Shown here in pieces: positions 17,550 to 56,364 of a DNA stretch of 64,000 nt (within the stretch, counting starts at the first letter, position 1; each line of letters starts with the position of its first letter). The notes beneath the pieces were generated by a model. That model did no database searches and had not been told where the DNA came from. It saw only the letters and a list, made by a program, of their open reading frames with translations. Location of the stretch: positions 2,095 to 66,094 of the forward strand of contig NZ_JASGED010000070.1 in NCBI RefSeq assembly GCF_047606765.1, read 5' to 3'. The position numbers and the translations under genes were made by a program. Source of the stretch: Thermomonas sp. GTDB lineage: Bacteria > Pseudomonadota > Gammaproteobacteria > Xanthomonadales > Xanthomonadaceae.

Positions 17550-17561
17550 ATCATTCGTGCC

Positions 17562-19170
<1,609 letters not shown>

Positions 19171-38284: not shown

Positions 38285-40468
38285 GTGTCGCATTTGCCCC
38301 ACTTCCCTGTCGTCTCTCCGCGCCTGTCCCTGCTTGCTGTCGCTCTGCTTGCCAGCCTGCAGGCCAACGCGCAGTCCTCGTCTGACACCAACACCGATTC
38401 CACGCCCACCGACCTGGACAAGGTGCTGGTGGTTGCCCAGCGCGCCGAGCGCGTCAGCAAGGGCGCCACCGGCCTGGATCTGGACATCAAGGACACACCG
38501 CAATCGATCAGCCTTGTCAGCGCCGGGCAGATGCGCGATTTCGGCGCGGACAACATCGACGATGCGCTGCGGCTGGCCACCGGCATCAACGTCGAGGAAT
38601 GGGAAACCAACCGCACCAACTACACCGCGCGCGGCTTCGATATCGTCAACACGCAGGTGGATGGCGTGGGCATGCCCAACGACTGGGGCATCGTCACCGG
38701 TGCCTTCGATGCCTTCGGCTACGAGAAGATCGAGGTGATCCGCGGCGCCAACGGCCAGCTCACCGGCGTCGGCAATGCGTCCGGCACGATCAACTACGTG
38801 CGCAAGCGGCCCACCAACGAGCGCCAGGGCGAGTTCAACGTGAAACTCGGCTCGTGGGGCAACACGCGCGCAGAGCTCGACTATTCCACCCCGCTCACGG
38901 GCGACGAACGCTGGGCGGGCCGCGTGGTCGCCGCGTGGGAAGACGGAGATTCGTATCTGGATTTGCTGCACGAGGATCGTGCATTCCTGTACGGCGTCGT
39001 TGACGGCCAACTGGGTGAAAACGCCACGCTCACGCTGGGCTACTCGCATCAGAAGGCCAATGCCGACAGCCCCACGTGGGGCGGTTTGCCCTTTGCCTAC
39101 AGCGACGGCACGCAGGCGGAATGGCCGCGCAACACCACCATCTCGCAGGACTGGGCGTACTGGAACACGGTCAACCAGACCGCCTTCGCCGAACTGACCT
39201 ATGCCTTGCCCAACGACTGGCAACTGAAGGGCACTTACAACTTCCGCAAGTCAACCGAAGACGAAAGCCTGTTCTACGCATGGGCGGGTGCAGGCCTCGA
39301 TCCGGTCACGCACGAAGGCATCCAGGCCTATCCGGGCTGGTATGCCGCCAATGGCAGTGGACACTTTGGCGAAGTATCCGTGTCTGGCCACTTCACCGCC
39401 TTCGGTCGCGAGCACGAGGCGGTGCTGGGTTATGCCCAGTCCTACGGATCGTTGCGGTACAGCACCCGCGACCCGGTCAACGATGTCGAGGCGGGCGATC
39501 CCGATCCCTACATGTTCATGCCGCCCTTCCCGTATGCGGGCAACGCCATGCCGGAACCGATCTGGGGCACATCGTATGAATACCAGCGCGGCAGCCAATG
39601 GTTGCGCCGCGCCTATGGTGCCGTGCGCCTGGGTCTGACCGACCGGGTGAAGGCCATCGTCGGCTTCAACCACACCTACTTCCACCGCAAGGGCGAGGAC
39701 ATCTACGGTGGCCCCTACGACCAGTCGCAGGGCAAGCTCTCGCCCTATGCCGGCCTGACCGTCGATGTCACCGACAACGCACTGCTGTACGCCAGCTATT
39801 CGGACATCTACCAGCCGCAGGACCAGCAAGACATCAATCACCAGTACCTCGACCCGACCAAGGGCGTGAACTACGAGGTGGGCGCGAAGGCCGAATGGTT
39901 CGGTCGCCGCCTGCTGACCACGCTGGCGTGGTTCTCCGCCAGGCAGGAAAACCTGGCCACGGAATCCGACACGCCGGCCTTCATCGACACCGACGGCGAT
40001 GGCGTCGATGATGATTTCTTCTGGTATTACTACGGTGCCAGCGTGAACTCGAAGGGTTGGGAGTTCGAGGCCACCGGCAAGCTGAACGACCATGTCGAGG
40101 TGGTATTCGGCTACACCGCGCTGAAGCTGACTTCACCGCAAGGCGACGACGTGTACCCGTGGGTTCCGCGCCACACCGCGAACCTGGCCGTCAGCGCCGC
40201 GTTGCCATCGTTGCCGCAACTGCGCTTCGGCGTGAGCGGGCGCTGGCAAAGCGAAGTCTGGAATTACGATGACGCGCTGGTCGCGGAAATCCACCAGCGT
40301 CCGTATGCCGTGCTCAACGCCTTCGGCGAATGGAACTTCAACAACCGCGTTTCCCTGCGCGCCAACGTCAACAACATCACCGACAGGACATACATCAGCA
40401 GCGTGTACTGGGTCGGCTACTACGGCGCGCCGCGCAACTACTCGCTGAGCCTGAACTGGAAACTCTGA
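38285..40468 (+). CDS. TonB-dependent siderophore receptor
   Basis: 727 aa. Signal peptide, TonB-box-like DLDKVLVVAQR, plug domain (DTPQSISLVSAGQMRD...ALRLATGINV), and a long beta-barrel ending YSLSLNWKL. Confidence 0.9.
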   Translation: MSHLPHFPVVSPRLSLLAVALLASLQANAQSSSDTNTDSTPTDLDKVLVVAQRAERVSKGATGLDLDIKDTPQSISLVSAGQMRDFGADNIDDALRLATGINVEEWETNRTNYTARGFDIVNTQVDGVGMPNDWGIVTGAFDAFGYEKIEVIRGANGQLTGVGNASGTINYVRKRPTNERQGEFNVKLGSWGNTRAELDYSTPLTGDERWAGRVVAAWEDGDSYLDLLHEDRAFLYGVVDGQLGENATLTLGYSHQKANADSPTWGGLPFAYSDGTQAEWPRNTTISQDWAYWNTVNQTAFAELTYALPNDWQLKGTYNFRKSTEDESLFYAWAGAGLDPVTHEGIQAYPGWYAANGSGHFGEVSVSGHFTAFGREHEAVLGYAQSYGSLRYSTRDPVNDVEAGDPDPYMFMPPFPYAGNAMPEPIWGTSYEYQRGSQWLRRAYGAVRLGLTDRVKAIVGFNHTYFHRKGEDIYGGPYDQSQGKLSPYAGLTVDVTDNALLYASYSDIYQPQDQQDINHQYLDPTKGVNYEVGAKAEWFGRRLLTTLAWFSARQENLATESDTPAFIDTDGDGVDDDFFWYYYGASVNSKGWEFEATGKLNDHVEVVFGYTALKLTSPQGDDVYPWVPRHTANLAVSAALPSLPQLRFGVSGRWQSEVWNYDDALVAEIHQRPYAVLNAFGEWNFNNRVSLRANVNNITDRTYISSVYWVGYYGAPRNYSLSLNWKL

Positions 40469-42843: not shown

Positions 42844-44568
42844 ATGGCCCGCATCCCCGACGCCTTCATTGACGATCTGCTTGCGCGCACCGACATCGTG
42901 GAGGTGGTGGGCAGCCGCATCCCGCTGAAGCGGCAGGGCAAGGAACACGCGGCGCGCTGCCCGTTCCACGACGAGCGTTCGGCCAGCTTTACCGTCTCGC
43001 CAACCAAGCAGTTCTACCACTGCTTCGGCTGCGGCGCGCACGGCACCGCGATCAGCTTCCTGATGCATTACGACCGCCTCGAGTTTCTCGACGCGGTGGA
43101 CGAACTGGCCAAGCGCGTGGGCATGGAAGTGCCGCGCGATACCCAGCAGCGCAACGCCAATCCGGAAACGCGCGACCTCTACGGCGCGATGGAGGCGGCA
43201 TCCACCTTCTTCCGCAACCAGCTTGCACGCAGCGACAAGGCGCGTGCCTATGTTGAAACGCGCGGCATCGCGGCGGAGATCGTCGAACGCTACGCGATCG
43301 GCTATGCGCCGGATGGGTTTTCCGCACTGCGCGACGCGCTCGGCACCGACCCGCGCCGCATGCAGTTGCTGGAACGCGGCGGGCTGTTCTCGAAGAACGA
43401 CAAGGGCAACATCTACGACAAGTTCCGCGACCGGCTGATGTTCCCGATCCATGACCGACGCGGGCGCACGATTGCGTTTGGCGGGCGCGTGATCGATCCC
43501 GAGGATTCGCCGAAATACCTCAACTCGCCGGAAACCGCGCTGTTCCACAAGGGCCGCGAGCTGTACGGCCTGTGGCAGGCGAAACAGGCCAACGCGAAGC
43601 TGGAACGGCTGATCGTGGTCGAAGGCTACATGGACGTGGTGGCGCTGGCGCAGTACGGCGTTTCGCAGGCGGTGGCGACGCTGGGCACCGCGACCACGCC
43701 CGACCACGCCGAGCTGCTGTTCCGCAACGCGCCGGACGTGTATTTCTGTTTCGATGGCGACCGCGCCGGGCGCAGCGCGGCATGGAAGGCGTTGGAATCG
43801 GTATTGCCGCGCATGAAGGACGGGCGGCAGGCGTTCTTCCTGTTTTTGCCCGATGGCGAAGACCCGGATTCGCTGGTGCGTCAGGAAGGTGTCGATGGCT
43901 TCGACGCACGCTTGCGCGCGGCCACGCCGCTGTCGGCGTTTTTCTACACATCACTGTCTGCCGACGTGAACCTGTCCAGCCTGGACGGCAAGGCGCGGCT
44001 GGCCGAACGCTGCAAGCCGCTGCTGGCGCAGATTCCCGATGGCGCCTTCGGCGACCTGATGCGCCAGCGCCTGACCGAACTCACCGGCGTCGGCGCGCGC
44101 ACAAGTACACCACAGACGCATGTGCCCGTGCTGCGCGCGTCACGCAACAGCCCTGCGCAGAAACCCAGCCTGGTGCGCGGCGCGATCACACACTTGCTGC
44201 ATCGCCCCGGCTTCGCACTCGACCTGCAGCCGCCCTATCGCTTTGCCGCGCTGCGCCAACCCGGCATTGATCTGTTGTCGGAACTGGTGTTGCTGGTGCG
44301 CGAGCGCCCGGACATCACCACCGGCGCGCTGCTGGAACATTTCCAAGGGCGCGAGGAACTGGCCGCGCTGCAGAAACTTGCCACGCAGGAACTGCCCGGT
44401 GAGCAAGCCGACCTGCGCACCGAGTTCCTCGATGCCATCGCGCAACTGGAAAAGCAGGTGCTGCAGCAGCGCATCGAGGAGTTGCAACAACAGCAGCGCG
44501 ACGGTGGTCTGGGTGATGTGGAAAAGCAGGAACTGCGCGAATTGCTGCAGGCGCGGATGCAGCGCTGA
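42844..44568 (+). CDS. dnaG: DNA primase
   Basis: 574 aa. Zn finger CPFHDERSASFTVSPTKQFYHCFGCGAHG, Toprim EGYMDVVAL...DGDRAG. Confidence 0.97.
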   Translation: MARIPDAFIDDLLARTDIVEVVGSRIPLKRQGKEHAARCPFHDERSASFTVSPTKQFYHCFGCGAHGTAISFLMHYDRLEFLDAVDELAKRVGMEVPRDTQQRNANPETRDLYGAMEAASTFFRNQLARSDKARAYVETRGIAAEIVERYAIGYAPDGFSALRDALGTDPRRMQLLERGGLFSKNDKGNIYDKFRDRLMFPIHDRRGRTIAFGGRVIDPEDSPKYLNSPETALFHKGRELYGLWQAKQANAKLERLIVVEGYMDVVALAQYGVSQAVATLGTATTPDHAELLFRNAPDVYFCFDGDRAGRSAAWKALESVLPRMKDGRQAFFLFLPDGEDPDSLVRQEGVDGFDARLRAATPLSAFFYTSLSADVNLSSLDGKARLAERCKPLLAQIPDGAFGDLMRQRLTELTGVGARTSTPQTHVPVLRASRNSPAQKPSLVRGAITHLLHRPGFALDLQPPYRFAALRQPGIDLLSELVLLVRERPDITTGALLEHFQGREELAALQKLATQELPGEQADLRTEFLDAIAQLEKQVLQQRIEELQQQQRDGGLGDVEKQELRELLQARMQR

Positions 44569-44577
44569 CCGGCGCGA

Positions 44578-45879
44578 TCAGGTACACAGTTCAAGCAGCC
44601 GCTCGATGTCATCCATCTGGTTGTGGAACGATGGCGAGATGCGGATGCGGTCCTGATACAAGGTGGCTTCCATGCCTGCCGCTGTGAAGCGTTCCTGCAA
44701 TCGCTTGCCCACGCCGCGCGCGGCGAAGGTGACGATGGGTGAACGCGAATCCGCTGGCGTCATCGGCAGGTAGCCCAGCGCCGGCATCGCCTGTTGCAGG
44801 CGCGCCAGCAACGGCTGCCGCCACGCGCTGATGCGTTCCACACCCAGTTCCAGCAGCAACTCCAGCGATGCCCGCAACATCGCAACGCCGGCATAGCCCA
44901 GCGTGCCCACTTCGATGCGGCCCGGCGTGTCACTGCGCGCCACGCTCTCGAACGGCGCGCTGCCGGGTGGATCGAACGGGTACAGATGGGTGGTGAAAGA
45001 CTGTTCCTGTCGGTACCCCCACTGCGAGCGCCGCAACGCCGGCAGGCTGCTGGCACGCACGTACATCAGGCCGATGCCGAAATCGCCCATCAGCCATTTG
45101 TAGGTCGAGCACGCTGCAAAATCGACGCCGCAAGCATGCAAATCGACCGGCACGGTGCCGGCCGCCTGGATGATGTCCGCATAGACCAGCGCACCGCGCG
45201 CATGCGCCACGTCGCACAGCGCCTTCAGGTCGTGCTCGAAGCCGTTGAGGCTGGAGACCTGCGAGACCGCGACCAGCCGCGTGCCGGGCGTGATCGCGCG
45301 CGCCATGTCCTCGATGTGGATGCGGTTGTCGCGTGGGCGCACGACGTGCAGATCCAGCCCTTGCTTGGCAAGCTCGCTGTACATGAACAGCGAGCCGCTG
45401 AAGTGGTAGGCATCGGTCACCACCCGTGCGCGCGTTCCCGGCAGGCCCAGCCCCGACACCACATGGTTCTCGCCGACCATCGTGCTGGGCACCCAGGCCA
45501 GTTCGGCGACGTCGGCATTCACCAGCCGCGCGAACAGCCGCATCGCCTGCTCGCGTTCGGCCATGAGATCCACCGACCGGCCATCCCGGTTCATCAGACG
45601 GCCATCGAGGTAATGGCGCAGGCTGCTTGCAGCCCCGCGCGCCACCGGATGCGTGTAGGCACCATTCAGATGCGTGCCTGCGTATTCGAAGCGCGCACGC
45701 GCGCCATCCAGCCCGCCGTGCCGCAATGCCGCACGCACCGGCGATGGCGTGCGTGCCTGCGCCGGCAGCGCCGGCAACACCGCCAGCGCGGGCAGTGCGC
45801 CAAGGCCGCGCAGCCAGCGTCGGCGTGCCGGATCGATGGCATCGTCGCGGTGCGGCAACTGCGTTGCGTCCGTCGTCAT
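44578..45879 (-). CDS. Class V aminotransferase-fold PLP-dependent enzyme with twin-arginine signal
   Basis: ORF 44578..45933(-). ATG at 45879 overlaps the upstream stop (ATGA). N-terminus DPARRRWLRGLGALPALAVLPALPAQA is Tat-like. CSTYKWLMG is a candidate PLP-lysine motif. Confidence 0.8.
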   Translation of the reverse strand: MTTDATQLPHRDDAIDPARRRWLRGLGALPALAVLPALPAQARTPSPVRAALRHGGLDGARARFEYAGTHLNGAYTHPVARGAASSLRHYLDGRLMNRDGRSVDLMAEREQAMRLFARLVNADVAELAWVPSTMVGENHVVSGLGLPGTRARVVTDAYHFSGSLFMYSELAKQGLDLHVVRPRDNRIHIEDMARAITPGTRLVAVSQVSSLNGFEHDLKALCDVAHARGALVYADIIQAAGTVPVDLHACGVDFAACSTYKWLMGDFGIGLMYVRASSLPALRRSQWGYRQEQSFTTHLYPFDPPGSAPFESVARSDTPGRIEVGTLGYAGVAMLRASLELLLELGVERISAWRQPLLARLQQAMPALGYLPMTPADSRSPIVTFAARGVGKRLQERFTAAGMEATLYQDRIRISPSFHNQMDDIERLLELCT

Positions 45880-47591
45880 GGGGCGTGCCCTGCATGGCAG
45901 GCGGCGTTGCCGGGCGCGTCGGCCAGCACCCACTGATAGCCGGGGAATGGCGCGCCAGCGGGGACGAACGACACCTCGAACCTGCGGCCTTCGCGTTCAA
46001 CGTGCAGCACGATGGCGTCACCGGGCCGCGACTGCTGGGCATCCAGCCCCACCGAGCGCGTCACCGCATCGCCATTGCGCAGGCCGGCGCGTGCTGCCGG
46101 GGAATCGGCCACCAGCCCGCGGATCACGCGCGGCACCTGCATCAGGCTGGCGATGTCAAAGCCCAGTTCGAACAGCGGCATCGCCACCTGTTCACGGCGA
46201 AAGCACGGGCCGAAGGCGTCTTCGGGCAGCACCAGCAGGCCACCGTCGCGCAAGGCGGCGTAGTCCGCATGCGCCTGCGGGCCGATGTCGCGCTCCAGCA
46301 TCGCCAGCCATGCCGCCACGTCCACGGCCTGTCCGGCCCGGCGACGCGCGAGGAACGCGCGGATCGCATCGTCCAGCGAACGCCTGCCGCCACTTGCCGC
46401 CTGCAAGCGCGCATTGACCAGCAGGAAATACACGCCGCCGCGCGAATAGGGCTGCATGCGCGCGCGCGCGTCAGTCCAGAACGCGGCTTCGGCCTGTGCC
46501 ATCGGCATGTCCTTGCGCACGTTGCTGTAGTAGGTGCGCAGGGTGTCGTTGATGCCGTCGATGTAGCGCTGACGCGAGAACAGCCCCAGCCGGTACGGCG
46601 CGCGCACTTCATAGGCCACGGCTAGGCCTTCCTGGAACCAGCTCTGTTCCTCCAGCCCGTCCAGGAACACATGCACCATTTCGTGTACCAGCAACTGCTC
46701 AAGCTCATCGCGCGGCAGGTCTGGTGCCATCGTGCTCATCAATGCACCCGGCATGGCCGTACCGCTCATCGCGGTGAGCGGGTTGGTGCGGAACAAGGTG
46801 GTGAACGGCGGCAATTCGGCTTCGCCGAAGAAACCGCTCAGCTTGCGGTAGGCCTGCTGCGACCACGCCAGCAGATCGTCCTGGCTGTAACCCGGGGTAT
46901 CGGCGGTGGATGCCGCGCGGAACGGGCCGCTGGCCGTGGCCAAGCGGGCCGGAAGGGCATGCAGGTCGCCGGCCATCAGATAGGCGTTGCGCAGCGCATC
47001 CAGCAGCACCGGCTGGCCACCATTGCGCGCCGCTGCAGGCAGGCTGTCCAGCGCCTGCGCGCCCTGCGGATAGGCGGACAGATCCCATTCGACGACGATG
47101 CGGTACGCGCGCGGGTCGTCGGGCAGCAACAGGAAGGTGCGGCCTGCGCCGCTGATGCCGCGTGGCTCCGAGCGCAGTTCCCAGATCGGGCCGGGCACGC
47201 TTTCGGTGGACACGGCAACCCGGTAATCCAGCACAACCTCGCCACGGGTGGCGCGTGCGGGCAGCCAGCGGCGAGTACGGCTTCCCAGCATGCCATCCGC
47301 CGCGCCGTCCTCGATCCGCCACGCAAGCGCGCCAGCGGCATCGCGCAGGCGCACGTCGCTGACGCGGTCTGCGATGCCTTGCAACGGCCCCAGCGAAACC
47401 GGCAGCCCCAGCGCGCGCACGCCGCGCGTGCCCGGCGTGATGCTCATGCGCACCTGCATGCCGGGCGCCGGCGTGCCGGCCAGTGGCGTCAGCCGCAGAC
47501 GCAGCACCGGCACGTCGCCTGCCATCGCCTGCGACATCGACAGCCACATGCAAAGCGCAGCCAGCAGGCGGCGCAATCCGGTCATGTGCAT
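45876..47591 (-). CDS. M61-like zinc metallopeptidase with C-terminal PDZ domain (secreted)
   Basis: 571 aa. Signal MHMTGLRRLLAALCMWLSMSQAMA, HEMVHVF...WFQEGLAVAYE (HExxH plus downstream E), C-terminal PDZ-like IRGLVADSPAARAGLRNGDAV. Confidence 0.75.
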   Translation of the reverse strand: MHMTGLRRLLAALCMWLSMSQAMAGDVPVLRLRLTPLAGTPAPGMQVRMSITPGTRGVRALGLPVSLGPLQGIADRVSDVRLRDAAGALAWRIEDGAADGMLGSRTRRWLPARATRGEVVLDYRVAVSTESVPGPIWELRSEPRGISGAGRTFLLLPDDPRAYRIVVEWDLSAYPQGAQALDSLPAAARNGGQPVLLDALRNAYLMAGDLHALPARLATASGPFRAASTADTPGYSQDDLLAWSQQAYRKLSGFFGEAELPPFTTLFRTNPLTAMSGTAMPGALMSTMAPDLPRDELEQLLVHEMVHVFLDGLEEQSWFQEGLAVAYEVRAPYRLGLFSRQRYIDGINDTLRTYYSNVRKDMPMAQAEAAFWTDARARMQPYSRGGVYFLLVNARLQAASGGRRSLDDAIRAFLARRRAGQAVDVAAWLAMLERDIGPQAHADYAALRDGGLLVLPEDAFGPCFRREQVAMPLFELGFDIASLMQVPRVIRGLVADSPAARAGLRNGDAVTRSVGLDAQQSRPGDAIVLHVEREGRRFEVSFVPAGAPFPGYQWVLADAPGNAACHAGHAP

Positions 47592-47655
47592 GGGTTCTCC
47601 CTGTCCTGCACAACACGACCGGGCCGGCGGCGATGCCGGCCCGGAATCGGCAGCG

Positions 47656-49878
47656 TCAGAAGTTCCAGCTTACCGAAACGCCCACGGTGCGCGGGCGGAT
47701 CACGGTGACACCATATTCGCCGCCGCTGCGCGAGATCGCGGTCAGGAAGCTGTAGGCATCGGTGGCGTTGCGCAGGTAGGCGGTGACGTTCCACTGGTCG
47801 CCTTCGATGCCGGCGCGCAGGTCGGCGGTGGTGTAGGCCGGCATGTCGAAGCGTGCAACGGCGGCGCTGCTGCTGAAGCCGGACAGGCGACTGCCGACAT
47901 GGGTCAGGCTGCCGCCGACGAAGGCGTACAGCGACCCCACCGGCACCGAGTAGTCGGCGGTCAGGCTGCCGCTGAAGCGCGGCGAATACGGCAGCCGGTC
48001 ACCGGCCTTGCCCACCGTGCCGGCAGGCAGGTCCTGCTCCAGTTTCGCATCCGAGTAGGCACCATTCAGGCCAAGCCGCAGTTTGTCGGTGACGCGCCAT
48101 TGCGCCGTCCACTCCAGCCCCGTGCTGGAGGCCTTGCCGCCATTGGTGTAATAGGTTTGCTCCGAAGCCGCATCGAGGATGCTGAGCTGGATGTCGGTCC
48201 AGTCGATGTAATAGGCCGCCACTTCCACCGTCACCCGTCCGTCGGCGCTGCTGGCCTTGTAGCCGGCCTCGTAGCTGACCAGATTGTCGGAGTCGTAGCT
48301 CTCCTGATACGTGGTGCCCGGCATCGGGTTGTTGTGGCCACCTGCCCGGTAGCCCGATGCGACGCGCCCGTAGAACATGCTGTTTTCGCCCAGCTTGAAG
48401 CGCGGCGAAATCAGGAAGGTGAATTTCTTCTCGCTTGCGTCGGGATCCACCTCGGTTGATGCGCCGCCGTTCATCGGCCCGTCGTAATCGGTGAAGGACG
48501 ACTGGCCGATCACGCTGTAGCGCCCGCCAAGCTGCAGGTCGAAACGCGGGCTGAAGTGGTAGTCGATGTCGCCATAGACCGCCCTTTCGTTGAAATTGGA
48601 CGGCGCGGTTGCGGTGTAGGCCGGCGGGAAGCCGAGATCGACGCCGGTGACGGCATCGACCGCGCGCAGCGCCTGGTAGCCCTCGGTCTGCTCGCGCGTC
48701 CAGTAGCCGCCAAGCTGCCAATCCAGCGTGCGCGCGCCCTGCGAGGAAAACCGGAACTCCTGCGACCACTTTTCGGTGCCGCGGCGGTTGTCGATGATGA
48801 CGCCGGGGCGCGGGCTGATGCCGTAGATCATGCCCAGCAGGCCACCGAAGATGTTGCTCACGTCCTGCGGGCCGTCATGCTCGTACTCGCCGAAAGCGGT
48901 GATCGAGTCGAACGCCATGCTGCCAAGATCGGCGTTGACCTTGAGGTTGTACAGGCGCACCTTGCCGTCGTAGATGTCGGTCATGCCCAGCCGGCGGCGG
49001 GTGTACTTGCCATACACCGGATCGCCGTTGAGATACACGCCAACGGCAGGCGTGCCCTGGCTTTCGGCATCCTGCGCCAACGCGCCCAGGTCGATGGTGA
49101 TGTTCTCCGCAGGCAGCCAGCGGGCGGCGACGCGCGCGCCTTTCACGCGGCCCTCGTTGACTTCCTCCTTGTCCTGCTGCTGGTCATAGATGTAGCCGGC
49201 ATCGGTGCGGTCGAACGCGCTCACGCGCAATGCGAAGGACTCGCCCGCCGGGACATTGATCGCGGCGCGCACGCCGTGGCCGATGCCGCCATGCGCGGTG
49301 CTGGACACGTCCGCCTGCACCCGGCCACTGAAGCCGGCCTGCGGGTCTGGCTGCACGGTCACGTATTTCAGCAGGCCACCCAGGCTGCTGGCACCGTACA
49401 GCGTGCCCTGCGGCCCGCGCAGGGCTTCGATCGCGGTCAGTTCGGACGGGTCGAGGTCAGGCGCCTGGATGTCGGTGGTGGACGAACCAAACGGCACGTC
49501 ATCGATCACCACGCCCACCGTCGGGCTCTGCTCGGTGGCAGTGGCGATGCCGCGCATCACCAACTGGGTGCGGCCGGAGCCACGCGCGTTCAGGCTCAGG
49601 CCGGGCACCTGCGCGAAGTAATCGGTCAGCTGCACCGCGCCCTGGTCGGCCATCTGCCGCGCATCCACCACGCTGACCGACATCGCCACGTCCTGCAGGC
49701 GCTCCACGCGCTTCTGCGCGGTCACCGTGATGGCGTCCAGCTCGGTGGGTTGGTGCGGCGGTGTGTCCTTGGCTTCCTGCGCACTGGCGGCGACACAGGC
49801 GGACGACAGTGCCACGGCGATCGCGGCTGCGATCAGGTTGCGGGTGCAGGGCTTGCGATGGTGGGGGCGGATCGACAT
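47656..49878 (-). CDS. TonB-dependent receptor
   Basis: ORF 47656..49959(-). ATG at 49878 preceded by AAGGA. Signal peptide, TonB box ELDAITVTA, plug (LQDVAMSVSVVD...VPGLSL...VMRGI), barrel ending VSVSWNF. Confidence 0.9.
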   Translation of the reverse strand: MSIRPHHRKPCTRNLIAAAIAVALSSACVAASAQEAKDTPPHQPTELDAITVTAQKRVERLQDVAMSVSVVDARQMADQGAVQLTDYFAQVPGLSLNARGSGRTQLVMRGIATATEQSPTVGVVIDDVPFGSSTTDIQAPDLDPSELTAIEALRGPQGTLYGASSLGGLLKYVTVQPDPQAGFSGRVQADVSSTAHGGIGHGVRAAINVPAGESFALRVSAFDRTDAGYIYDQQQDKEEVNEGRVKGARVAARWLPAENITIDLGALAQDAESQGTPAVGVYLNGDPVYGKYTRRRLGMTDIYDGKVRLYNLKVNADLGSMAFDSITAFGEYEHDGPQDVSNIFGGLLGMIYGISPRPGVIIDNRRGTEKWSQEFRFSSQGARTLDWQLGGYWTREQTEGYQALRAVDAVTGVDLGFPPAYTATAPSNFNERAVYGDIDYHFSPRFDLQLGGRYSVIGQSSFTDYDGPMNGGASTEVDPDASEKKFTFLISPRFKLGENSMFYGRVASGYRAGGHNNPMPGTTYQESYDSDNLVSYEAGYKASSADGRVTVEVAAYYIDWTDIQLSILDAASEQTYYTNGGKASSTGLEWTAQWRVTDKLRLGLNGAYSDAKLEQDLPAGTVGKAGDRLPYSPRFSGSLTADYSVPVGSLYAFVGGSLTHVGSRLSGFSSSAAVARFDMPAYTTADLRAGIEGDQWNVTAYLRNATDAYSFLTAISRSGGEYGVTVIRPRTVGVSVSWNF

Positions 49879-50007
49879 GGCGATTCCTTGTGCGAAGGTT
49901 GGAATCACCTTATCCGCGAGCCGCCGCAATGGGTGCGCATCCTTGGCGGCAACAGCCACGTCCCGTGCAAAAAATTACCCGATTTCACGCATGCATGCAC
50001 AAAATCA

Positions 50008-50478
50008 TCAGGGCATGCCCTGCGTGCCTTGCTGCGGATAGTGCGCGATGCACTCCACTTCCAGTGCCGCGCCCAGCGCCAGCCCGCTGGACCCGAACGC
50101 GCTGCGCGCGGGCAGGCGCGCGCGATCCGGGAAATAGTCCAGATACACCCGGTTGAACTCCGGCCAGCGCGCCATGTCCTCGATCATCACCACGCACTTC
50201 ACCACGTGCTGCATGCCCAGGCCGGCCATGCTCAGGGCCGCGACCAGATTGTCCATTGCCTGCCGCGCCTGCGCCTCGAAATCCGCCGGCAGCTTGCCCT
50301 GCGCATCCACCCCGATCTGGCCCGACAGGTACAGCGTGTCGCCCGCGCGCACGGCCGCCGAGAACGGATACGGGCTGGCCGGGTCGCGGAAATGCTGCAG
50401 CGGCGAGGCGGGCTCGCCGGCGGACGCGACGCCCGCGATGGACAACAGGATGGCGGCAAGGAATCGGGACATGGGCAT
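50008..50478 (-). CDS. RidA (YjgF/UK114) family protein with signal peptide
   Basis: 156 aa within ORF 50008..50769(-). MPMSRFLAAILLSIAGVASA signal; YLSGQIG...; C-terminal PARSAFG...LEVECIA matches the family signature, including the conserved Arg. The ATG shares 1 nt with the upstream stop (TGATG). Confidence 0.8.
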   Translation of the reverse strand: MPMSRFLAAILLSIAGVASAGEPASPLQHFRDPASPYPFSAAVRAGDTLYLSGQIGVDAQGKLPADFEAQARQAMDNLVAALSMAGLGMQHVVKCVVMIEDMARWPEFNRVYLDYFPDRARLPARSAFGSSGLALGAALEVECIAHYPQQGTQGMP

Positions 50479-52151
50479 CACCGGTGCGGGGAAGAAAACA
50501 GAGGTTGCGGGCGCGGCATCGGCGCATCCCGCTGCGCGGCATCGAGCGCCAGCAGCGCCTGCACGGTGGCGATGCGGGTCAGGCCATCGAAGTCGAGGCG
50601 CTCGTATGCATCCACGCTGGTATGGCGGGCGCGGGTCATGTAGTCGGTCGGATCCTGCAGGAACAGCAGCGCGGGCAGGCCGGCATCGGTATAGCTGGAC
50701 TGATCCGCAGGCCAGCCGGGGCCGTCCAGCACGAACTCCACGCCAAGCGATGCCAGCCGTGGCTGCCACTGGCGCAGCAAAGCTGCCATCGCCGGGTCGG
50801 CACCGGCGTAGATGCCGCGAATCGGGCCGCTGCCCATGTCCACCAGCATCGCCAGTGACAACGCCGCATGCGCGGCGCGCGGCACCGGCGCACCGGTGAC
50901 CAGACCGCTGGCAGGGTCACGCGGCACCTGCGCGTAATGCGCATCCACGTAGGCGCGCGAACCCAGCACGCCTTGCTCTTCGCCGGTGAACAGCACCATG
51001 CGGATCGTGCGGCGCGGCGCGATGGCAGAGGCACGGATGATGCGCATCGCCTCCAGCGCGCCGATCACGCCGGCACCGTCGTCCACCGCGCCGGTGGCAC
51101 CGGCCCAGCTGTCGAGGTGGGCCACGATCTCGACGGCCTCGCCACGCAGGCATGGGTCGGTGCCGGGGATCTCCGCGATCAGGTTGGCGGCGCGCACCGG
51201 TGCAGGCGTGGTGGTGGTGGCGACTTCGTATTCCACCTGCACCTGCACGCCCGAGCGCAGCAGGCGCGCAACCCGCCCGAACCCTTCGTTGCCGGCCACC
51301 AGCACCGGGAAGGCCGGTGCCCGCCCGGTTTGCCAGGGCCGGGCCACCAGCAGCGCGCTGTCATCCAGCAGCAGGCGCGCAGTGCCGGAGCCGGCGGCGG
51401 ACGGATCCCCCGCCAGCACCACCGCCTGCACGCCCTCGTCCATCAGGAACCGCGCCAGCCTGTCACGGAAGGCCCCACGATCAAGGCGGGCGGGAATGCG
51501 CGCGGCACGCCCGGCGAAATAACGCCGCACGCTGTCCAGTTCACGGCCTGCGCTGGCCGCATCGAAACGCGGCGATGGCGATGGCTGCGCCGCCAGTGCA
51601 TCCTGCGGCGGCAACGCGCCCAGGAACAGCACCTTGCCGCGCAGCCGGCCACGCCAGGCATCCAGCGCGGCGGCATCGTCCAGCTCGGCCCATGCGGCAT
51701 CGCCCTGCACCACGCCCGCACTGGCGACCGACCACGGCGCGGCCTGCGCCACGAACATCATCGGCACCGGTGCCTGCATGCGCATCCACGCACGCTGCTG
51801 GGTCCAGCCGTGGCCGAACACGCCCCAGTCCTCGAGACGCACGCGGGCCAGCCCGATCGCCCGCGCCTGGTCACTGGCCCAGACCAGCGCCGCGTCCAGG
51901 CCAGGCGAGCCGGTCAGGCGCGGCCCGATGCGATCCAGCAGGCCATGCGCCAGCGCCGGTGCGCGCGATGCCCCCAGCCCCAGCGCCTGCACATGTTCGC
52001 GCTGCGCGGCATCCAGTCCCTCGATGCCGCGCGCCGGGCAGCTTCCTGCGGATACCGGTGCCGGCCGCGCCAGCAGCGCCAGCCCCAGCAGCGCCGCAAC
52101 CTGCCATCCGGCGTGCCCGTGCCTGTTGCGGTTGCGTGCGCGTGTCTGCAT
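50478..52151 (-). CDS. M28 family metallopeptidase (PA-domain aminopeptidase-like, secreted)
   Basis: The C-terminal 557 codons of ORF 50478..53801(-). Start MQTRARNRNRHGHAGWQVAALLGLALLA is signal-like. IVAHLDSWAGATGAVDDGAGV...VLFTGEEQGVLGSRAY are M28 metal-ligand motifs. An alternative ATG at 52241 would overlap the MFS stop by 1 nt. Confidence 0.8.
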   Translation of the reverse strand: MQTRARNRNRHGHAGWQVAALLGLALLARPAPVSAGSCPARGIEGLDAAQREHVQALGLGASRAPALAHGLLDRIGPRLTGSPGLDAALVWASDQARAIGLARVRLEDWGVFGHGWTQQRAWMRMQAPVPMMFVAQAAPWSVASAGVVQGDAAWAELDDAAALDAWRGRLRGKVLFLGALPPQDALAAQPSPSPRFDAASAGRELDSVRRYFAGRAARIPARLDRGAFRDRLARFLMDEGVQAVVLAGDPSAAGSGTARLLLDDSALLVARPWQTGRAPAFPVLVAGNEGFGRVARLLRSGVQVQVEYEVATTTTPAPVRAANLIAEIPGTDPCLRGEAVEIVAHLDSWAGATGAVDDGAGVIGALEAMRIIRASAIAPRRTIRMVLFTGEEQGVLGSRAYVDAHYAQVPRDPASGLVTGAPVPRAAHAALSLAMLVDMGSGPIRGIYAGADPAMAALLRQWQPRLASLGVEFVLDGPGWPADQSSYTDAGLPALLFLQDPTDYMTRARHTSVDAYERLDFDGLTRIATVQALLALDAAQRDAPMPRPQPLFSSPHR

Positions 52152-52240
52152 TGCCGGATCATAGCCACGCCGCGCCGCACGGAATGTGCGAACGGGCACC
52201 GGTTCAGCACCGCAATCGCGCAAAACGTGCATCGCGCGCA

Positions 52241-53692
52241 TCACTTCACCGAACCTGCGGCATGCCGCGCCAATTGCTGGCGCATGGCCTCGAAGGTGGT
52301 GGCATCGATCGGGTAATGGCGCACGATCCATGCCGCCACCAGCACCAGCAAGGCGGGCAGCAGCGCAATCCCGATACGCAGGCCATCGCGCACGCCGGCA
52401 TCGGCAGCATCCACGCCATGGAAACCCACCACGGCAAGCAGCAGGCTGACCAGCACGCCCCCCAGCACCATGCCGCTTTGCTGGATCACCACCCACAGGC
52501 CATAGATCGCACCTTCGCGACGCCCGCCGCCCTGCAAGGCGTCGTACTCCACCGTGTCCGGCACCATCGCGTTGGGCAGCAGTTCCGCGCCTGCATTGAA
52601 CACGCCGAACACCAGCATCATCGCCACCAGTGCAGCCACTGTGCCGCCTGGCAGCCACAGGCTGCCTGCCCAGCAAACCACCAGCCCCAGATAGGCGGCG
52701 ATGCAGGCCTCGCGCTTGCCGATGCGCGCCGCCAGCCATGCCCATAACGGCGTGCTGGCAAGGCTGGCCAGCGACCCCGCCGGAAACAGCAGGCCCATCA
52801 GCGTGGCCGGCTGCCCATGCACCACGGTGACGGCATAGATCAGCGCACCACTGAAACAGACATTGGCCATGTTGGCGACCAGATAGCCCGCGCCCAGCAC
52901 GGCCAGCGGGCGGTTGCGGCGCAATGCCCGCCACTGCATGCGCAGGCCGTCCTGCGCCGGCGGCACGCGCACATCTGCGGCCTGCGGCGCGCGCGCAGTG
53001 GCGAAGAACACCAGCAGGCCACTGGCCAGGATCACGCCGCCGAACACCAGCCCGGCATTGCGATACCCCTGCAACGGCGTTGCCGCGCGCTCGACGATCC
53101 ACGGCAGCACCGAAATCGCCAGCAACACCGCCAGCCGCGATGCCATTTCCTTGTAGCCGATCAGGCCAAGGCGCTGCGCATAGTCCGGCACCATTTCCGG
53201 TGCCATCGCCGAGTACGGCACGTGGTAGAGGCTGACGCCGGTATTCACCAGCAGGTAGAGCAGCAGGAACATCACCGCCAGCAGTGGCGCGCCAGCCCCT
53301 GCCGGCAGCCAGAACATCGCCGCAAACGCCGGTGCCCAGAGCAAGGTTCCTGCCAGCACCCAGGGCCGTCGTCGTCCCCAGCGCGAGCGTGTGCGATCGG
53401 ACAGCACGCCTGCCAGCGGATCGGTGACGATGTTCCAGACACGCGGCACCACGGTGACCAGCCCGGCCAGCAAGACCGGCACCTGCAGCACCTCGGTCAG
53501 GTAATAAAGCAGGTAGATGCTGACGATGGCCATGTGGCTGGCAATCGCGAACTGCCCCGCTGCCCAGCCCAGGCGAACGGCAAGCGGAAGCGGCGTGGCG
53601 GGCGTTTGCACGGGCGGATCCTGCGAGGGTTGTGGGCAAGGCCACAGGGCCAAGGCGTCCCGGCACGATCCTAGTCCACGCCACCACTGCAT
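52241..53692 (-). CDS. MFS transporter, glycoside-pentoside-hexuronide (GPH):cation symporter family
   Basis: ORF 52241..53788(-). Loop motif DPLAGVLSDRTRSRWGRRRPW is the GPH signature, with about 12 TM segments. Start is uncertain: ATG at 53692, or GTG at 53611, which has AGGA 8 nt upstream. Confidence 0.8.
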   Translation of the reverse strand: MQWWRGLGSCRDALALWPCPQPSQDPPVQTPATPLPLAVRLGWAAGQFAIASHMAIVSIYLLYYLTEVLQVPVLLAGLVTVVPRVWNIVTDPLAGVLSDRTRSRWGRRRPWVLAGTLLWAPAFAAMFWLPAGAGAPLLAVMFLLLYLLVNTGVSLYHVPYSAMAPEMVPDYAQRLGLIGYKEMASRLAVLLAISVLPWIVERAATPLQGYRNAGLVFGGVILASGLLVFFATARAPQAADVRVPPAQDGLRMQWRALRRNRPLAVLGAGYLVANMANVCFSGALIYAVTVVHGQPATLMGLLFPAGSLASLASTPLWAWLAARIGKREACIAAYLGLVVCWAGSLWLPGGTVAALVAMMLVFGVFNAGAELLPNAMVPDTVEYDALQGGGRREGAIYGLWVVIQQSGMVLGGVLVSLLLAVVGFHGVDAADAGVRDGLRIGIALLPALLVLVAAWIVRHYPIDATTFEAMRQQLARHAAGSVK

Positions 53693-53812
53693 GCACAGGT
53701 TTTCCGCAGAACCACGCGCGGCCATGCAAAAATCCGCTTGCAGGCTGTCTGTCACGCACGTTATCGACGGCCAGAACGGCACAGCCACTCAAATCAGGCA
53801 CGGGAGCATGCG

Positions 53813-54289
53813 ATGACCGCCCTCGACAGTTACGACATCCGCATCCTGGAAGCCTTGCAGGTGCAGGGCGACATGACCATGTCCGACCTGTCCGAGCGCG
53901 TGCATCTTTCGCATTCGCAGTGCTCCCGGCGCGTCAAGCACCTGCGCGAGACCGGCCTGATCCGGGGCTTTGCCGCGATCCTCGACCCCGCCAAGCTGGG
54001 CCTGCAACTGAAGGCCTACATCACCGTCACCCTGAAGCTCAATTCGCAGGCCGCCACCGAGTTCCGCGCGCTGATCCGCGACACCGCCGAAATCCTGGAA
54101 TGCACGATGGTCACCGGCGATGGCGATTTCCTGCTGAAGGTGCATACCCGCGACCTGCCGCATTTCCGTGACCTGCTTTCGCAACTGGCGCAGGTGGACG
54201 TGGTGGCCAGCATGCGTTCCGTGATCGTGATCGACGACCTCAAGAACACCTCCGCGTTGCCGGTCTATCCGCAACCCGTGGCGCGTTGA
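53813..54289 (+). CDS. Lrp/AsnC family transcriptional regulator
   Basis: ATG at 53813 in ORF 53738..54289, with GGGAG 8 nt upstream. LDSYDIRILEALQVQGDMTMSDLSERVHLSHSQCSRRVKHLRETGLI, plus a C-terminal RAM/AsnC_trans_reg domain. Confidence 0.9.
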   Translation: MTALDSYDIRILEALQVQGDMTMSDLSERVHLSHSQCSRRVKHLRETGLIRGFAAILDPAKLGLQLKAYITVTLKLNSQAATEFRALIRDTAEILECTMVTGDGDFLLKVHTRDLPHFRDLLSQLAQVDVVASMRSVIVIDDLKNTSALPVYPQPVAR

Positions 54290-54390
54290 GCAATAACGAA
54301 GCACGCGCGGCGGCATTCGTGACTTCTGATCGAGGCATCCTGCAGCCTGCGCACTAAGCTCGCATTTCCATCCGGGCCCGGGACGCCACG

Positions 54391-56364
<1,974 letters not shown>

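What the first reader, a model, noticed from the sequence alone, without database searches (positions are those of the whole stretch)
44578..45879. Class-V aminotransferase-fold PLP enzyme with a textbook twin-arginine signal, implying a cofactor-loaded periplasmic enzyme
The N-terminus reads ...DPARRRWLRGLGALPALAVLPALPAQA-RTP. It contains RRxWLR (compare the Tat consensus S/T-R-R-x-F-L-K), a hydrophobic h-region and an AxA cleavage site. The start codon overlaps the M61 peptidase stop (ATGA). The mature part has the fold-type I/class V lysine context CSTYKWLMG. Tat export fits a protein that folds around PLP in the cytoplasm. The one precedent I know for a Tat-exported class-V-fold PLP enzyme is PvdN, in periplasmic pyoverdine maturation in Pseudomonas. 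Such enzymes are otherwise cytoplasmic (cysteine desulfurases, epimerases, lyases). This one probably performs periplasmic chemistry on an amino-acid or peptide moiety delivered by the adjacent TonB receptor and peptidases.
Basis: partly seen in the sequence, partly recalled or inferred. Interest (0 to 1): 0.6.

Follow-up and report, generated by a model that had tools for sequence, protein, structure and literature searches.

The report
Tat-exported periplasmic class-V PLP enzyme
This gene encodes a vitamin-B6 (PLP) enzyme with a conserved twin-arginine export signal; it belongs to a large, unstudied family found across several bacterial phyla next to exported peptidases, a TonB-dependent receptor and often an exported RidA deaminase, which points to PLP chemistry done in the periplasm during peptide breakdown.

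Summary
ORF 44578-45879 (-) encodes a 433-aa class-V aminotransferase-fold protein (Pfam Aminotran_5, E 6e-35). Its N-terminus is A-RR-R-W-L-R, then a 16-residue uncharged h-region, then AQA|R. Its ATG overlaps the stop of the upstream M61-like peptidase gene (ATGA).

The RR motif is near-invariant in an otherwise variable N-terminus across homologues from at least 5 phyla (106 of the 120 best hits). The genome encodes tatC.

The protein is not PvdN (30.6 bits against a 650-bit cut-off; separate clade). It is not a cysteine desulfurase, because the catalytic-Cys loop is deleted. It is not kynureninase.

In about two thirds of 81 loci the gene sits beside Sec-exported S10-like or M61-like peptidases, an amidohydrolase and a TonB receptor. 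In 9 loci a RidA gene lies in the locus. Six pair a Tat-PLP gene with a Sec-signal RidA. Two pair a signal-less PLP paralogue with a signal-less RidA. One is unclear.

Best reading: a Tat-exported periplasmic lyase-type PLP enzyme that acts on products of periplasmic exopeptidases, possibly by beta-elimination as in C-DES, with RidA quenching the enamine. The substrate is unknown.

I found no published characterisation. Only PvdN and PtaA are proven PLP-containing Tat substrates. First-stage readers of this scan flagged distant Tat class-V proteins in two other genomes.

The parts
44578..45879 (-). CDS of the Tat-signal class-V PLP enzyme (433 aa precursor; predicted mature protein is residues 43-433)
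   Evidence: Translation. Pfam Aminotran_5, E 5.8e-35. AF2 model with pLDDT 82.5. Structural matches to SufS, C-DES and kynureninase at Z 36-38.
45754..45879 (-). Predicted Tat signal peptide, residues 1-42: n-region, twin-arginine motif, h-region GLGALPALAVLPALPA, c-region AQA with cleavage before R43
   Evidence: Read directly from the sequence. The motif is conserved across the family.
45808..45825 (-). Twin-arginine core R19-R20-R21-W22-L23-R24, preceded by A18. It corresponds to the consensus S/T-R-R-x-F-L-K.
   Evidence: R19 and R20 are at least 90% conserved in alignment A1.
45097..45099 (-). Codon of Lys261, the predicted PLP Schiff-base lysine in CSTYKWLMG
   Evidence: Invariant in A1 and A2, and aligned with the catalytic lysine of the own-genome SufS and kynureninase.
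45876..47591 (-). Upstream, translationally coupled gene: Sec-signal M61-like (HExxH) metallopeptidase with a weak PDZ match
   Evidence: Translation. Weak Pfam hits: PDZ_6 E 0.003, Peptidase_M61 E 0.019. Orthologues lie near the PLP gene in 35 of 81 loci, typically adjacent.
47656..49959 (-). TonB-dependent receptor. The likely start is the ATG near 49878, giving MSIRPHH... followed by a signal peptide.
   Evidence: Pfam Plug and TonB_dep_Rec_b-barrel. N-terminus. Orthologous receptor present in 13 loci.
50008..50478 (-). Rid-family (RidA-like) protein with the Sec-type signal MSRFLAAILLSIAGVASA|GEP
   Evidence: Pfam Ribonuc_L-PSP, E 3.9e-29. TIGR00004 scores 95.5 bits against a 106-bit cut-off. 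Pairing with the PLP gene in other loci.
50478..52151 (-). M28 aminopeptidase-like protein with a Sec signal. The start was chosen at ATG 52151; the 1107-aa ORF listed for this frame is an over-extension.
   Evidence: Pfam Peptidase_M28, E 5e-25. N-terminus MQTRARNRNRHGHAGWQVAALLGLALLARPAPVSA.
52241..53692 (-). GPH/MFS_2-type inner-membrane symporter, first gene of the cluster
   Evidence: Pfam MFS_2, E 1e-83. TIGR00792 scores 228 bits, just under its cut-off.
54391..56364 (+). Divergently transcribed S9 (prolyl-oligopeptidase / Dpp5-like) peptidase with a Sec signal
   Evidence: Pfam Peptidase_S9, E 3e-38. N-terminus MLHRTLLLATLFAALPAFA.

Best explanation
The gene encodes a precursor of a fold-type I, class-V PLP enzyme with a cleavable twin-arginine signal peptide of about 42 residues.

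Proposed mechanism:
1. The protein folds and binds PLP at Lys261 in the cytoplasm (inferred by analogy with PvdN and PtaA).
2. TatABC exports it to the periplasm. This is supported by the conserved signal and the presence of tatC, but is not shown experimentally.
3. In the periplasm it works as part of a TonB-dependent peptide-uptake and exopeptidase locus. The locus contains M61-like, M28 and S9 peptidases here, and S10-like carboxypeptidases and an amidohydrolase in other genomes.
4. It lacks the catalytic-cysteine loop of cysteine desulfurases, so it cannot form a persulfide.
5. It most probably acts as a lyase on a free amino acid, or on a residue with a free alpha-amino group, released by the peptidases. 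Beta-elimination as in the cystine C-S lyase C-DES is the favoured chemistry.
6. That reaction would release a 2-aminoacrylate-type enamine, which the co-encoded exported RidA hydrolyses to a 2-oxo acid plus ammonia.

My sub-probabilities:
- Periplasmic, Tat-dependent location: about 0.85.
- Role in periplasmic peptide or amino-acid catabolism: about 0.7.
- Enamine-producing beta- or gamma-lyase chemistry: about 0.4.
- Cystine or another S-substituted amino acid as substrate: about 0.15.
For: Fold and cofactor site:
- Pfam Aminotran_5. AF2 model with pLDDT 82.5.
- Structural matches at Z 36-38 to type-II cysteine desulfurases, to C-DES (1n31, rmsd 2.4 A over 353 residues) and to kynureninase.
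- Lys261, Asp235, His159 and Arg413 are invariant within the family (A1). In the alignment with the own-genome SufS and kynureninase (A2), Lys261, Asp235 and Arg413 are invariant. His159 aligns with the first His of SufS MEHHAN but with Tyr in kynureninase.

Export:
- Motif A-RR-R-W-L-R, then a 16-residue uncharged h-region, then AQA.
- RR present in 106 of the 120 best homologues and at least 90% conserved in A1.
- RR also seen by eye in the more divergent sphingomonad, acidobacterial and gemmatimonad members.
- tatC present at 224 bits against a 133-bit cut-off.
- All other enzymes of the locus carry Sec-type signals. This fits Tat being needed only for the cofactor protein.

Context, in 81 loci from different species:
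- S10-like carboxypeptidase in 42, M61-like peptidase in 35, TonB receptor in 33, exported amidohydrolase in 20, RidA in 9.

RidA coupling:
- RidA lies directly downstream of the PLP gene in L004, L014, L015, L021, L039 and L043.
- A Tat-PLP gene is paired with a Sec-signal RidA in the window and in L002, L004, L014, L015 and L021.
- A signal-less PLP paralogue is paired with a signal-less RidA in L039 and L043, where in-frame stops lie 4-12 codons upstream.
- The genome has a separate canonical RidA scoring 157 bits.
- Published work records RidA genes clustering with genes annotated as L-cysteine desulfurase, which are 2-aminoacrylate producers (PMC4433059).

No catalytic Cys:
- The 13-residue SufS segment containing the cysteine is deleted in all family members.
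Against: - No experiment exists for any member that I could find.
- The Tat-signal HMMs gave no significant hit on the 50 N-terminal residues.
- RidA is within 7 kb of the PLP gene (the span scanned for neighbours) in only 9 of 81 loci.
- About a third of the loci show no peptidase neighbours, so the link is not universal.
- SufS, C-DES and kynureninase are structurally tied, so the reaction type cannot be read from the fold.
- The family shares some kynureninase-like motifs: Tyr before the lysine, RISPS, and the loop deletion.
- Transamination, decarboxylation as in PvdN, and epimerisation remain possible.
Confidence: 0.55

Rival explanations
1. A periplasmic tailoring enzyme of the PvdN/PtaA type. 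It would decarboxylate or transaminate the free alpha-amino acid end of a secreted peptide metabolite such as a siderophore. Its role would be biosynthetic or recycling, not catabolic.
For: PvdN and PtaA are the only proven PLP-containing Tat substrates, and both modify a peptide-bound Glu in the periplasm (PMC6206403). A TonB-dependent receptor is in the operon. A separate siderophore receptor lies 4 kb away at 38285-40468.
Against: The PvdN model scores 30.6 bits against a 650-bit cut-off. The family forms a clade separate from PvdN. In all 81 loci the recurrent neighbour families found (the gene clusters named by Pfam) were exported exopeptidases, amidohydrolases and TonB receptors, not NRPS or siderophore genes. 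The RidA partner is not explained by decarboxylation or transamination.
Confidence: 0.12
2. A periplasmic kynureninase-like hydrolase that cleaves a C-beta to C-gamma bond of a gamma-keto or aryl amino acid released from peptides.
For: The family shares several features with kynureninase: Tyr immediately before the Schiff-base Lys, deletion of the Cys loop, a C-terminal RISP(S/A)xxN motif, and part of the insertion after the lysine. Kynureninase structures match at Z 36. PDB 1qz9 matches at E 6e-15.
Against: TIGR01814 scores 44 bits against a 246-bit cut-off. The PLP-stacking residue is His, as in SufS, and not the aromatic residue aligned in kynureninase. The genome already has a bona fide kynureninase in a kynurenine-pathway cluster. 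Kynureninase chemistry yields alanine, not an enamine, so RidA would be unexplained.
Confidence: 0.1
3. A periplasmic epimerase or racemase, similar to isopenicillin-N epimerase. It would convert D or unusual residues with a free alpha-amino group so that the exopeptidases can proceed.
For: Some class-V enzymes are epimerases (from my own knowledge, not tested here). The enzyme is embedded among aminopeptidases and carboxypeptidases.
Against: No epimerase reference was among the top structural or sequence matches. That absence is inconclusive and does not exclude the idea. The RidA partner is not explained.
Confidence: 0.08
4. A cytoplasmic enzyme, either a genuine cysteine desulfurase or another class-V enzyme, whose arginine-rich N-terminus is a by-product of high GC content.
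For: The genome is GC-rich, so Arg, Ala and Leu are common. The Tat HMMs gave no hit. Public annotations call relatives 'selenocysteine lyase/cysteine desulfurase'.
Against: The RR motif is conserved in low-GC Bacteroidota homologues as well. The catalytic Cys loop is absent. All SufS, IscS and CsdA models score far below their cut-offs. The genome has its own SufS in a suf-like cluster.
Confidence: 0.04

Closest known systems
PvdN (Pseudomonas, periplasmic pyoverdine-tailoring class-V PLP enzyme; NCBIfam NF051467)
   Same: Class-V fold, an N-terminal twin-arginine signal, and presumed export with PLP already bound. PvdN export requires the PLP lysine (PMC6206403).
   Different: Only 30.6 bits on the PvdN model, whose cut-off is 650. 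Separate, strongly supported clades. The genomic context is exported peptidases, a TonB receptor and RidA, not a pyoverdine cluster. PvdN did not appear among the listed top sequence or structure matches.
PtaA (periplasmic transaminase A of Pseudomonas; Tat-exported PLP enzyme)
   Same: A Tat-exported PLP enzyme active in the periplasm, also found in species that make no pyoverdine (PMC6206403).
   Different: No reference sequence was available, so no direct comparison was made. PtaA is described as a normal transaminase. The family here groups structurally with lyases, desulfurases and kynureninase.
Cystine C-S lyase C-DES (Synechocystis; PDB 1elq, 1n31)
   Same: Class-V group-II fold with no catalytic cysteine. 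It does beta-elimination that yields an aminoacrylate. It gave the lowest rmsd among the top matches (Z 37.2, 2.4 A over 353 residues).
   Different: About 18% identity. C-DES is cytoplasmic and has no signal peptide. The Z score is tied with SufS and kynureninase, so this is a mechanistic analogy only.
Type-II cysteine desulfurases SufS / CsdA
   Same: Best sequence and structure matches: E about 1e-18 for the single sequence and 1e-29 for the family profile; Z about 37. The PLP-binding Lys, Asp and stacking His, and the carboxylate-binding Arg, are conserved.
   Different: The loop that carries the persulfide-forming Cys is deleted. There is a family-specific insertion of about 20 residues (GYRQ...H..PFD). 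The protein has a Tat signal. There are no SufE/SufU-type partners nearby.
Kynureninase (TIGR01814)
   Same: The Y-K motif, the deleted Cys loop and the RISP motif. Z 36.
   Different: Far below the family cut-off. The PLP-stacking residue differs. A true kynureninase is encoded elsewhere in the genome.

Membership tests
Fold-type I / class-V aminotransferase-fold PLP enzymes (Pfam PF00266) | Profile match above the gathering threshold | tested here: met
   121.4 bits against a 21.5-bit cut-off, residues 102-393.
Fold-type I / class-V aminotransferase-fold PLP enzymes (Pfam PF00266) | Schiff-base lysine, pyridine-N aspartate and carboxylate-binding arginine at the aligned positions | tested here: met
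   K261, D235 and R413 are invariant and aligned with the own-genome SufS and kynureninase.
Fold-type I / class-V aminotransferase-fold PLP enzymes (Pfam PF00266) | Three-dimensional fold | tested here: met
   AF2 model with pLDDT 82.5 and pTM 0.80. Z 36-38 over about 355 residues to SufS, C-DES and kynureninase.
Tat (twin-arginine) substrates | N-terminal S/T-R-R-x-F-L-K-like motif, then a moderately hydrophobic h-region and an AxA cleavage site | tested here: met
   A18-R-R-R-W-L-R24, then 16 uncharged residues with 3 Pro, then A40-Q-A42|R.
Tat (twin-arginine) substrates | Conservation of the RR motif among homologues | tested here: met
   106 of 120 homologues. R19 and R20 at least 90% conserved in A1. 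RK variants occur in a few Chitinophagaceae.
Tat (twin-arginine) substrates | Tat translocase encoded in the genome | tested here: met
   tatC (TIGR00945) scores 223.9 bits against a 132.7-bit cut-off on contig C25.
Tat (twin-arginine) substrates | Match to curated Tat-signal profiles (TIGR01409 / PF10518) | tested here: inconclusive
   No significant hit on residues 1-50. The only hit was TIGR02811 at E 0.21. These profiles are very short and insensitive.
Tat (twin-arginine) substrates | Tat-dependent export shown experimentally | not testable with these tools
   Needs a reporter fusion or fractionation in wild-type and tat-mutant backgrounds.
PvdN family (NF051467) | Equivalog model score of at least 650 bits | tested here: not met
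   30.6 bits. A true PvdN (L085) scores 796 bits.
PvdN family (NF051467) | Groups with PvdN in a phylogeny | tested here: not met
   The family (24 rows) and the PvdN clade are each supported at 100 SH-aLRT, on separate long stems. Deep nodes are unresolved (quick tree).
PvdN family (NF051467) | Location in a pyoverdine or siderophore biosynthesis cluster | tested here: not met
   The neighbours are peptidases, a TonB receptor, RidA and an MFS transporter.
Cysteine desulfurases (SufS/CsdA/IscS/NifS) | Active-site cysteine on the mobile loop (persulfide formation) | tested here: not met
   The SufS segment SGQHCAHPLLQRLGVGT has no counterpart in any family member.
Cysteine desulfurases (SufS/CsdA/IscS/NifS) | Curated family model above its cut-off | tested here: not met
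   The best is TIGR01979 at 91 bits against a 475-bit cut-off.
Kynureninase (TIGR01814) | Curated family model above its cut-off | tested here: not met
   44.4 bits against a 246.4-bit cut-off.
C-DES-type cystine beta-lyase | Class-V group-II fold without a catalytic Cys | tested here: met
   This feature is shared with kynureninase, so it is not specific.
C-DES-type cystine beta-lyase | Cystine or Cys beta-elimination activity | not testable with these tools
   Needs an enzyme assay. The only indirect support is the RidA partnership.
PtaA (periplasmic transaminase A) | Sequence relatedness to PtaA | not tested
The PtaA paper (PMC5682972) is not held.

The most novel reading that the evidence does not exclude
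Bacteria from at least five phyla may run a previously unrecognised periplasmic PLP step in peptide utilisation. A Tat-exported class-V lyase would deaminate or de-substitute an amino acid released by periplasmic exopeptidases. A dedicated Sec-exported RidA would detoxify the resulting enamine. This would extend the RidA / 2-aminoacrylate damage-control paradigm to the periplasm. It would also define a third, and by far the most widespread, family of PLP-containing Tat substrates.
Probability: 0.35. Interest if true: 0.7.

Novelty: new variant of a known kind. Interest (0 to 1): 0.55.

Why it matters
PLP enzymes are almost all cytoplasmic. A 2026 review of Tat transport still cites only PvdN and PtaA as evidence that PLP proteins use this pathway (PMC13673990).

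The family studied here is different in four ways:
- It is distinct from PvdN.
- It was found in at least 573 species-representative genomes across Pseudomonadota, Bacteroidota, Acidobacteriota and Gemmatimonadota.
- It is embedded in TonB-dependent exopeptidase loci, not in siderophore clusters.
- It is sometimes paired with an exported RidA.

If the proposed role holds, three things follow. Amino-acid catabolism would begin in the periplasm in many environmental bacteria. Enamine stress and its control would exist outside the cytoplasm. Hundreds of genes now annotated as 'cysteine desulfurase/selenocysteine lyase' would be mis-named.

The question is directly testable with a soluble enzyme and simple coupled assays.

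Tried and rejected
- Tat-signal HMMs (NCBIfam and Pfam) on residues 1-50 gave no significant hit. I treat this as uninformative, not negative.
- The promoter and terminator scan of 44000-54600 found nothing above the shuffled expectation. Only a weak hairpin lies after RidA. The number of transcription units is therefore unresolved.
- Cysteine desulfurase was rejected because the Cys loop is deleted.
- PvdN membership was rejected on model score and tree.
- Kynureninase membership was rejected on model score and because a true kynureninase is encoded elsewhere.
- The phylogeny covered 33 rows. Only the quick tree finished; the careful search timed out. Relationships among this family, PvdN, SufS, kynureninase and the other Tat lineages are unresolved, with long branches. 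I therefore cannot say whether Tat export arose once or several times.
- The PtaA paper is not held.
- Eight literature searches for a characterised member, a periplasmic cysteine desulfurase or lyase, or an exported RidA returned nothing relevant.
- Loci L087-L089 come from unpublished genomes and were not used. They appear only in the tallies.
- Loci without peptidase neighbours showed no consistent alternative context. Their neighbours included MacB/FtsX, an S8 subtilase and an esterase.
Full report
**Observation**

The minus-strand ORF 44578-45879 encodes 433 aa.
- Its N-terminus reads MTTDATQLPHRDDAIDPARRRWLRGLGALPALAVLPALPAQA|RTP.
- The ATG at 45879 overlaps the TGA of the upstream gene 45876-47591 (ATGA).
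- An in-frame GTG at 45933 could extend the ORF by 18 residues. The 76%-identical orthologue in L001 begins just before its RR motif, 10 bp after the upstream gene ends. In any case an extension would only lengthen the n-region.
- Pfam gives Aminotran_5 (E 5.8e-35).
- No NCBIfam model reaches its cut-off. SufS scores 91 of 475 bits, kynureninase 44 of 246, and PvdN 30.6 of 650.

**Is the Tat signal real?**

- In a 24-sequence alignment spanning Xanthomonadales, Alteromonas/Shewanella, Pseudomonas and several Bacteroidota (A1), R19 and R20 are at least 90% conserved. The flanking N-terminal columns are variable.
- Of the 120 best database homologues, 106 carry RR followed by hydrophobic residues in the first 60 aa. 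Most exceptions are truncated gene calls.
- More divergent members from Sphingomonadales, Acidobacteriota and Gemmatimonadota also show RR signals by eye. Four Chitinophagaceae members have RK.
- The genome encodes tatC.
- A crude Tat-pattern scan of the whole genome flags 0.6% of long ORFs. The flagged set includes this protein and an ORF whose N-terminus (GRRRFLT) resembles the Tat signal of Rieske proteins, identified by eye and not verified.
- Curated Tat-signal HMMs gave no hit on residues 1-50. I regard this as uninformative.
- Every other enzyme in the locus has a Sec-type signal. This fits the idea that only the cofactor-bearing protein needs Tat.

**What kind of class-V enzyme is it?**

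- By sequence, the nearest solved structures are SufS/CsdA-type cysteine desulfurases at about 21-25% identity, and kynureninase.
- An AF2 model (pLDDT 82.5) matches SufS, CsdA, the cystine lyase C-DES (1n31: Z 37.2, rmsd 2.4 A over 353 residues) and kynureninase. The Z scores are all essentially tied at 36-38.
- I aligned the family with this genome's own SufS (L083) and kynureninase (L084).
  - Lys261 (Schiff base), Asp235, His159 (aligned with the first His of SufS MEHHAN; kynureninase has Tyr there) and Arg413 are conserved within the family.
  - The 13-residue SufS loop with the persulfide-forming Cys is deleted, as in kynureninase.
  - The family has its own insertion of about 20 residues (GYRQ..H..PFD).
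- A maximum-likelihood tree (quick search, 33 rows) recovers the family as one clade (100 SH-aLRT, long stem). It is separate from a PvdN clade (100). Deep nodes are unresolved.
- The same search that supplied PvdN also turned up other Tat-bearing class-V lineages (L086, L090, L094). Exported class-V enzymes are therefore more diverse in genomes than the literature suggests.

**Context**

The window encodes, on the minus strand:
- a GPH/MFS symporter (52241-53692)
- an M28 peptidase (50478-52151)
- a signal-bearing RidA (50008-50478)
- a TonB-dependent receptor (47656-49959)
- an M61-like/PDZ peptidase (45876-47591)
- the PLP enzyme (44578-45879)

A divergent S9 peptidase lies at 54391-56364.

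I fetched 80 loci from different species, out of 573 confirmed, and clustered all ORFs within 7 kb of the PLP gene. Counts out of 81 loci including the window:
- exported S10-like serine carboxypeptidase: 42, often directly downstream
- M61/M1-like peptidase: 35, usually adjacent and on the same strand
- TonB-dependent receptor: 33
- exported amidohydrolase of about 690 aa: 20
- RidA: 9

Sphingomonads add a cytoplasmic class-I/II aminotransferase and an ornithine-cyclodeaminase/mu-crystallin homologue. About a third of loci, mainly Cytophagales, Acidobacteriota and Gemmatimonadota, show no consistent neighbours.

The gene is patchily distributed. I found it in 4 of 151 genomes of the window's order, and in none of 18 other genomes of its family. 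It is single-copy in this genome.

**RidA link**

- RidA lies immediately downstream of the PLP gene in L004, L014, L015, L021, L039 and L043. It lies within the operon in the window, L001 and L002.
- Where the PLP enzyme has a Tat signal, the RidA has a Sec signal. This holds for the window and for L002, L004, L014, L015 and L021. L001 is unclear.
- In the two Oxalobacteraceae loci (L039, L043) a signal-less PLP paralogue is followed by a signal-less RidA. In-frame stops lie 4 and 12 codons upstream of the two PLP genes and 11 codons upstream of the L039 RidA. For the L043 RidA the upstream frame stays open for 133 codons but holds no ATG, GTG or TTG.
- This co-variation of compartment argues that the two proteins act together.
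- The window's RidA is an extra paralogue. A canonical RidA (157 bits) is encoded elsewhere in the genome.
- The established activity of RidA is hydrolysis of enamines and imines such as 2-aminoacrylate. Published comparative genomics noted RidA clustering with genes annotated as 'L-cysteine desulfurase' (PMC4433059).

**Interpretation**

Shown by computation:
- class-V fold with an intact PLP site
- a conserved Tat-type signal and the presence of a Tat system
- absence of the desulfurase cysteine
- conserved synteny with exported exopeptidases and a TonB receptor
- compartment-matched RidA pairing

Inferred:
- cytoplasmic PLP loading and Tat export, by analogy with PvdN and PtaA (PMC6206403)
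- a role downstream of periplasmic peptide hydrolysis
- lyase chemistry that releases an enamine

Speculative: a cystine or S-substituted amino-acid substrate. This rests on the analogy with C-DES and on the oxidising nature of the periplasm.

Rivals that remain open are PvdN/PtaA-like tailoring, a kynureninase-like hydrolase and an epimerase.

**Literature**

A 2018 review and a 2026 review list only PvdN and PtaA as PLP-containing Tat substrates. A proteome-wide Tat study in P. aeruginosa validated the aminotransferase PA2531 and PvdN. I found nothing on this family, on a periplasmic class-V lyase, or on an exported RidA.

Public databases label members generically. Names include 'aminotransferase class V-fold PLP-dependent enzyme', 'selenocysteine lyase/cysteine desulfurase', and for some clusters 'twin-arginine translocation pathway signal'.

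First-stage readers of this scan flagged Tat class-V proteins in two other genomes, and flagged the whole locus and the RidA in this window.

**Verdict**

The gene is a member of a large, uncharacterised family of Tat-signal class-V PLP enzymes. The family is distinct from PvdN and tied to periplasmic peptide-degradation loci. It is a new variant of a known kind, of moderate to good interest.

Noticed in passing
window 50008-50478 (-): A Rid-family protein with a clear Sec signal (MSRFLAAILLSIAGVASA|GEP). It is one of five Rid genes in this genome, and a canonical RidA (157 bits) lies on another contig. I could find no description of an exported RidA in the literature.
   Followed up: partly
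L039:9977-11544 and L043:9977-11547: In two Oxalobacteraceae loci a signal-less paralogue of the PLP enzyme is followed directly by a signal-less RidA. In-frame stops lie just upstream of both PLP genes and of the L039 RidA. The same locus also holds a Tat-bearing paralogue, exported S10 peptidases and a TonB receptor.
   Followed up: partly
L026, L035, L040, L041 (N-termini of the PLP genes): A Bacteroidota subgroup (two Chitinophagaceae, Puia sp. and an unclassified Bacteroidetes MAG) has S/T-R-K-x-F-V instead of R-R at the twin-arginine position. This is a natural RK variant of the signal.
   Followed up: no
L094:1489-2790 (-), L090:300-1661 (-), L086:1489-2754 (-): Further class-V proteins with twin-arginine N-termini that belong neither to this family nor to PvdN proper. 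They score 107-448 bits on the PvdN model, below its cut-off. L094 comes from a genome of the same taxonomic family as the window.
   Followed up: partly
L049-L077 (sphingomonad loci), within 7 kb of the PLP gene: A highly conserved arrangement: S10, class-I/II aminotransferase, large TonB receptor, S10, Tat-PLP, S10, amidohydrolase, ornithine-cyclodeaminase/mu-crystallin. It suggests a dedicated peptide or amino-acid pathway with both periplasmic and cytoplasmic parts.
   Followed up: partly
window 50478-53801 (-): The 1107-aa ORF listed here is an over-extension through the GC-rich MFS gene, which is in a different frame. The M28 peptidase most likely starts at ATG 52151 and has its own signal peptide.
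   Followed up: yes
L084 (own genome contig C18, around 14945-18685): The genome carries a kynurenine-pathway-like cluster: kynureninase, an FAD monooxygenase and an amidohydrolase, with another Rid-family gene about 2 kb away.
   Followed up: no
window 44568-44578: dnaG (+ strand, stop at 44568) and the PLP gene (- strand, stop at 44578) converge with only 9 bp between their stop codons. The scan found no terminator-like hairpin there.
   Followed up: partly
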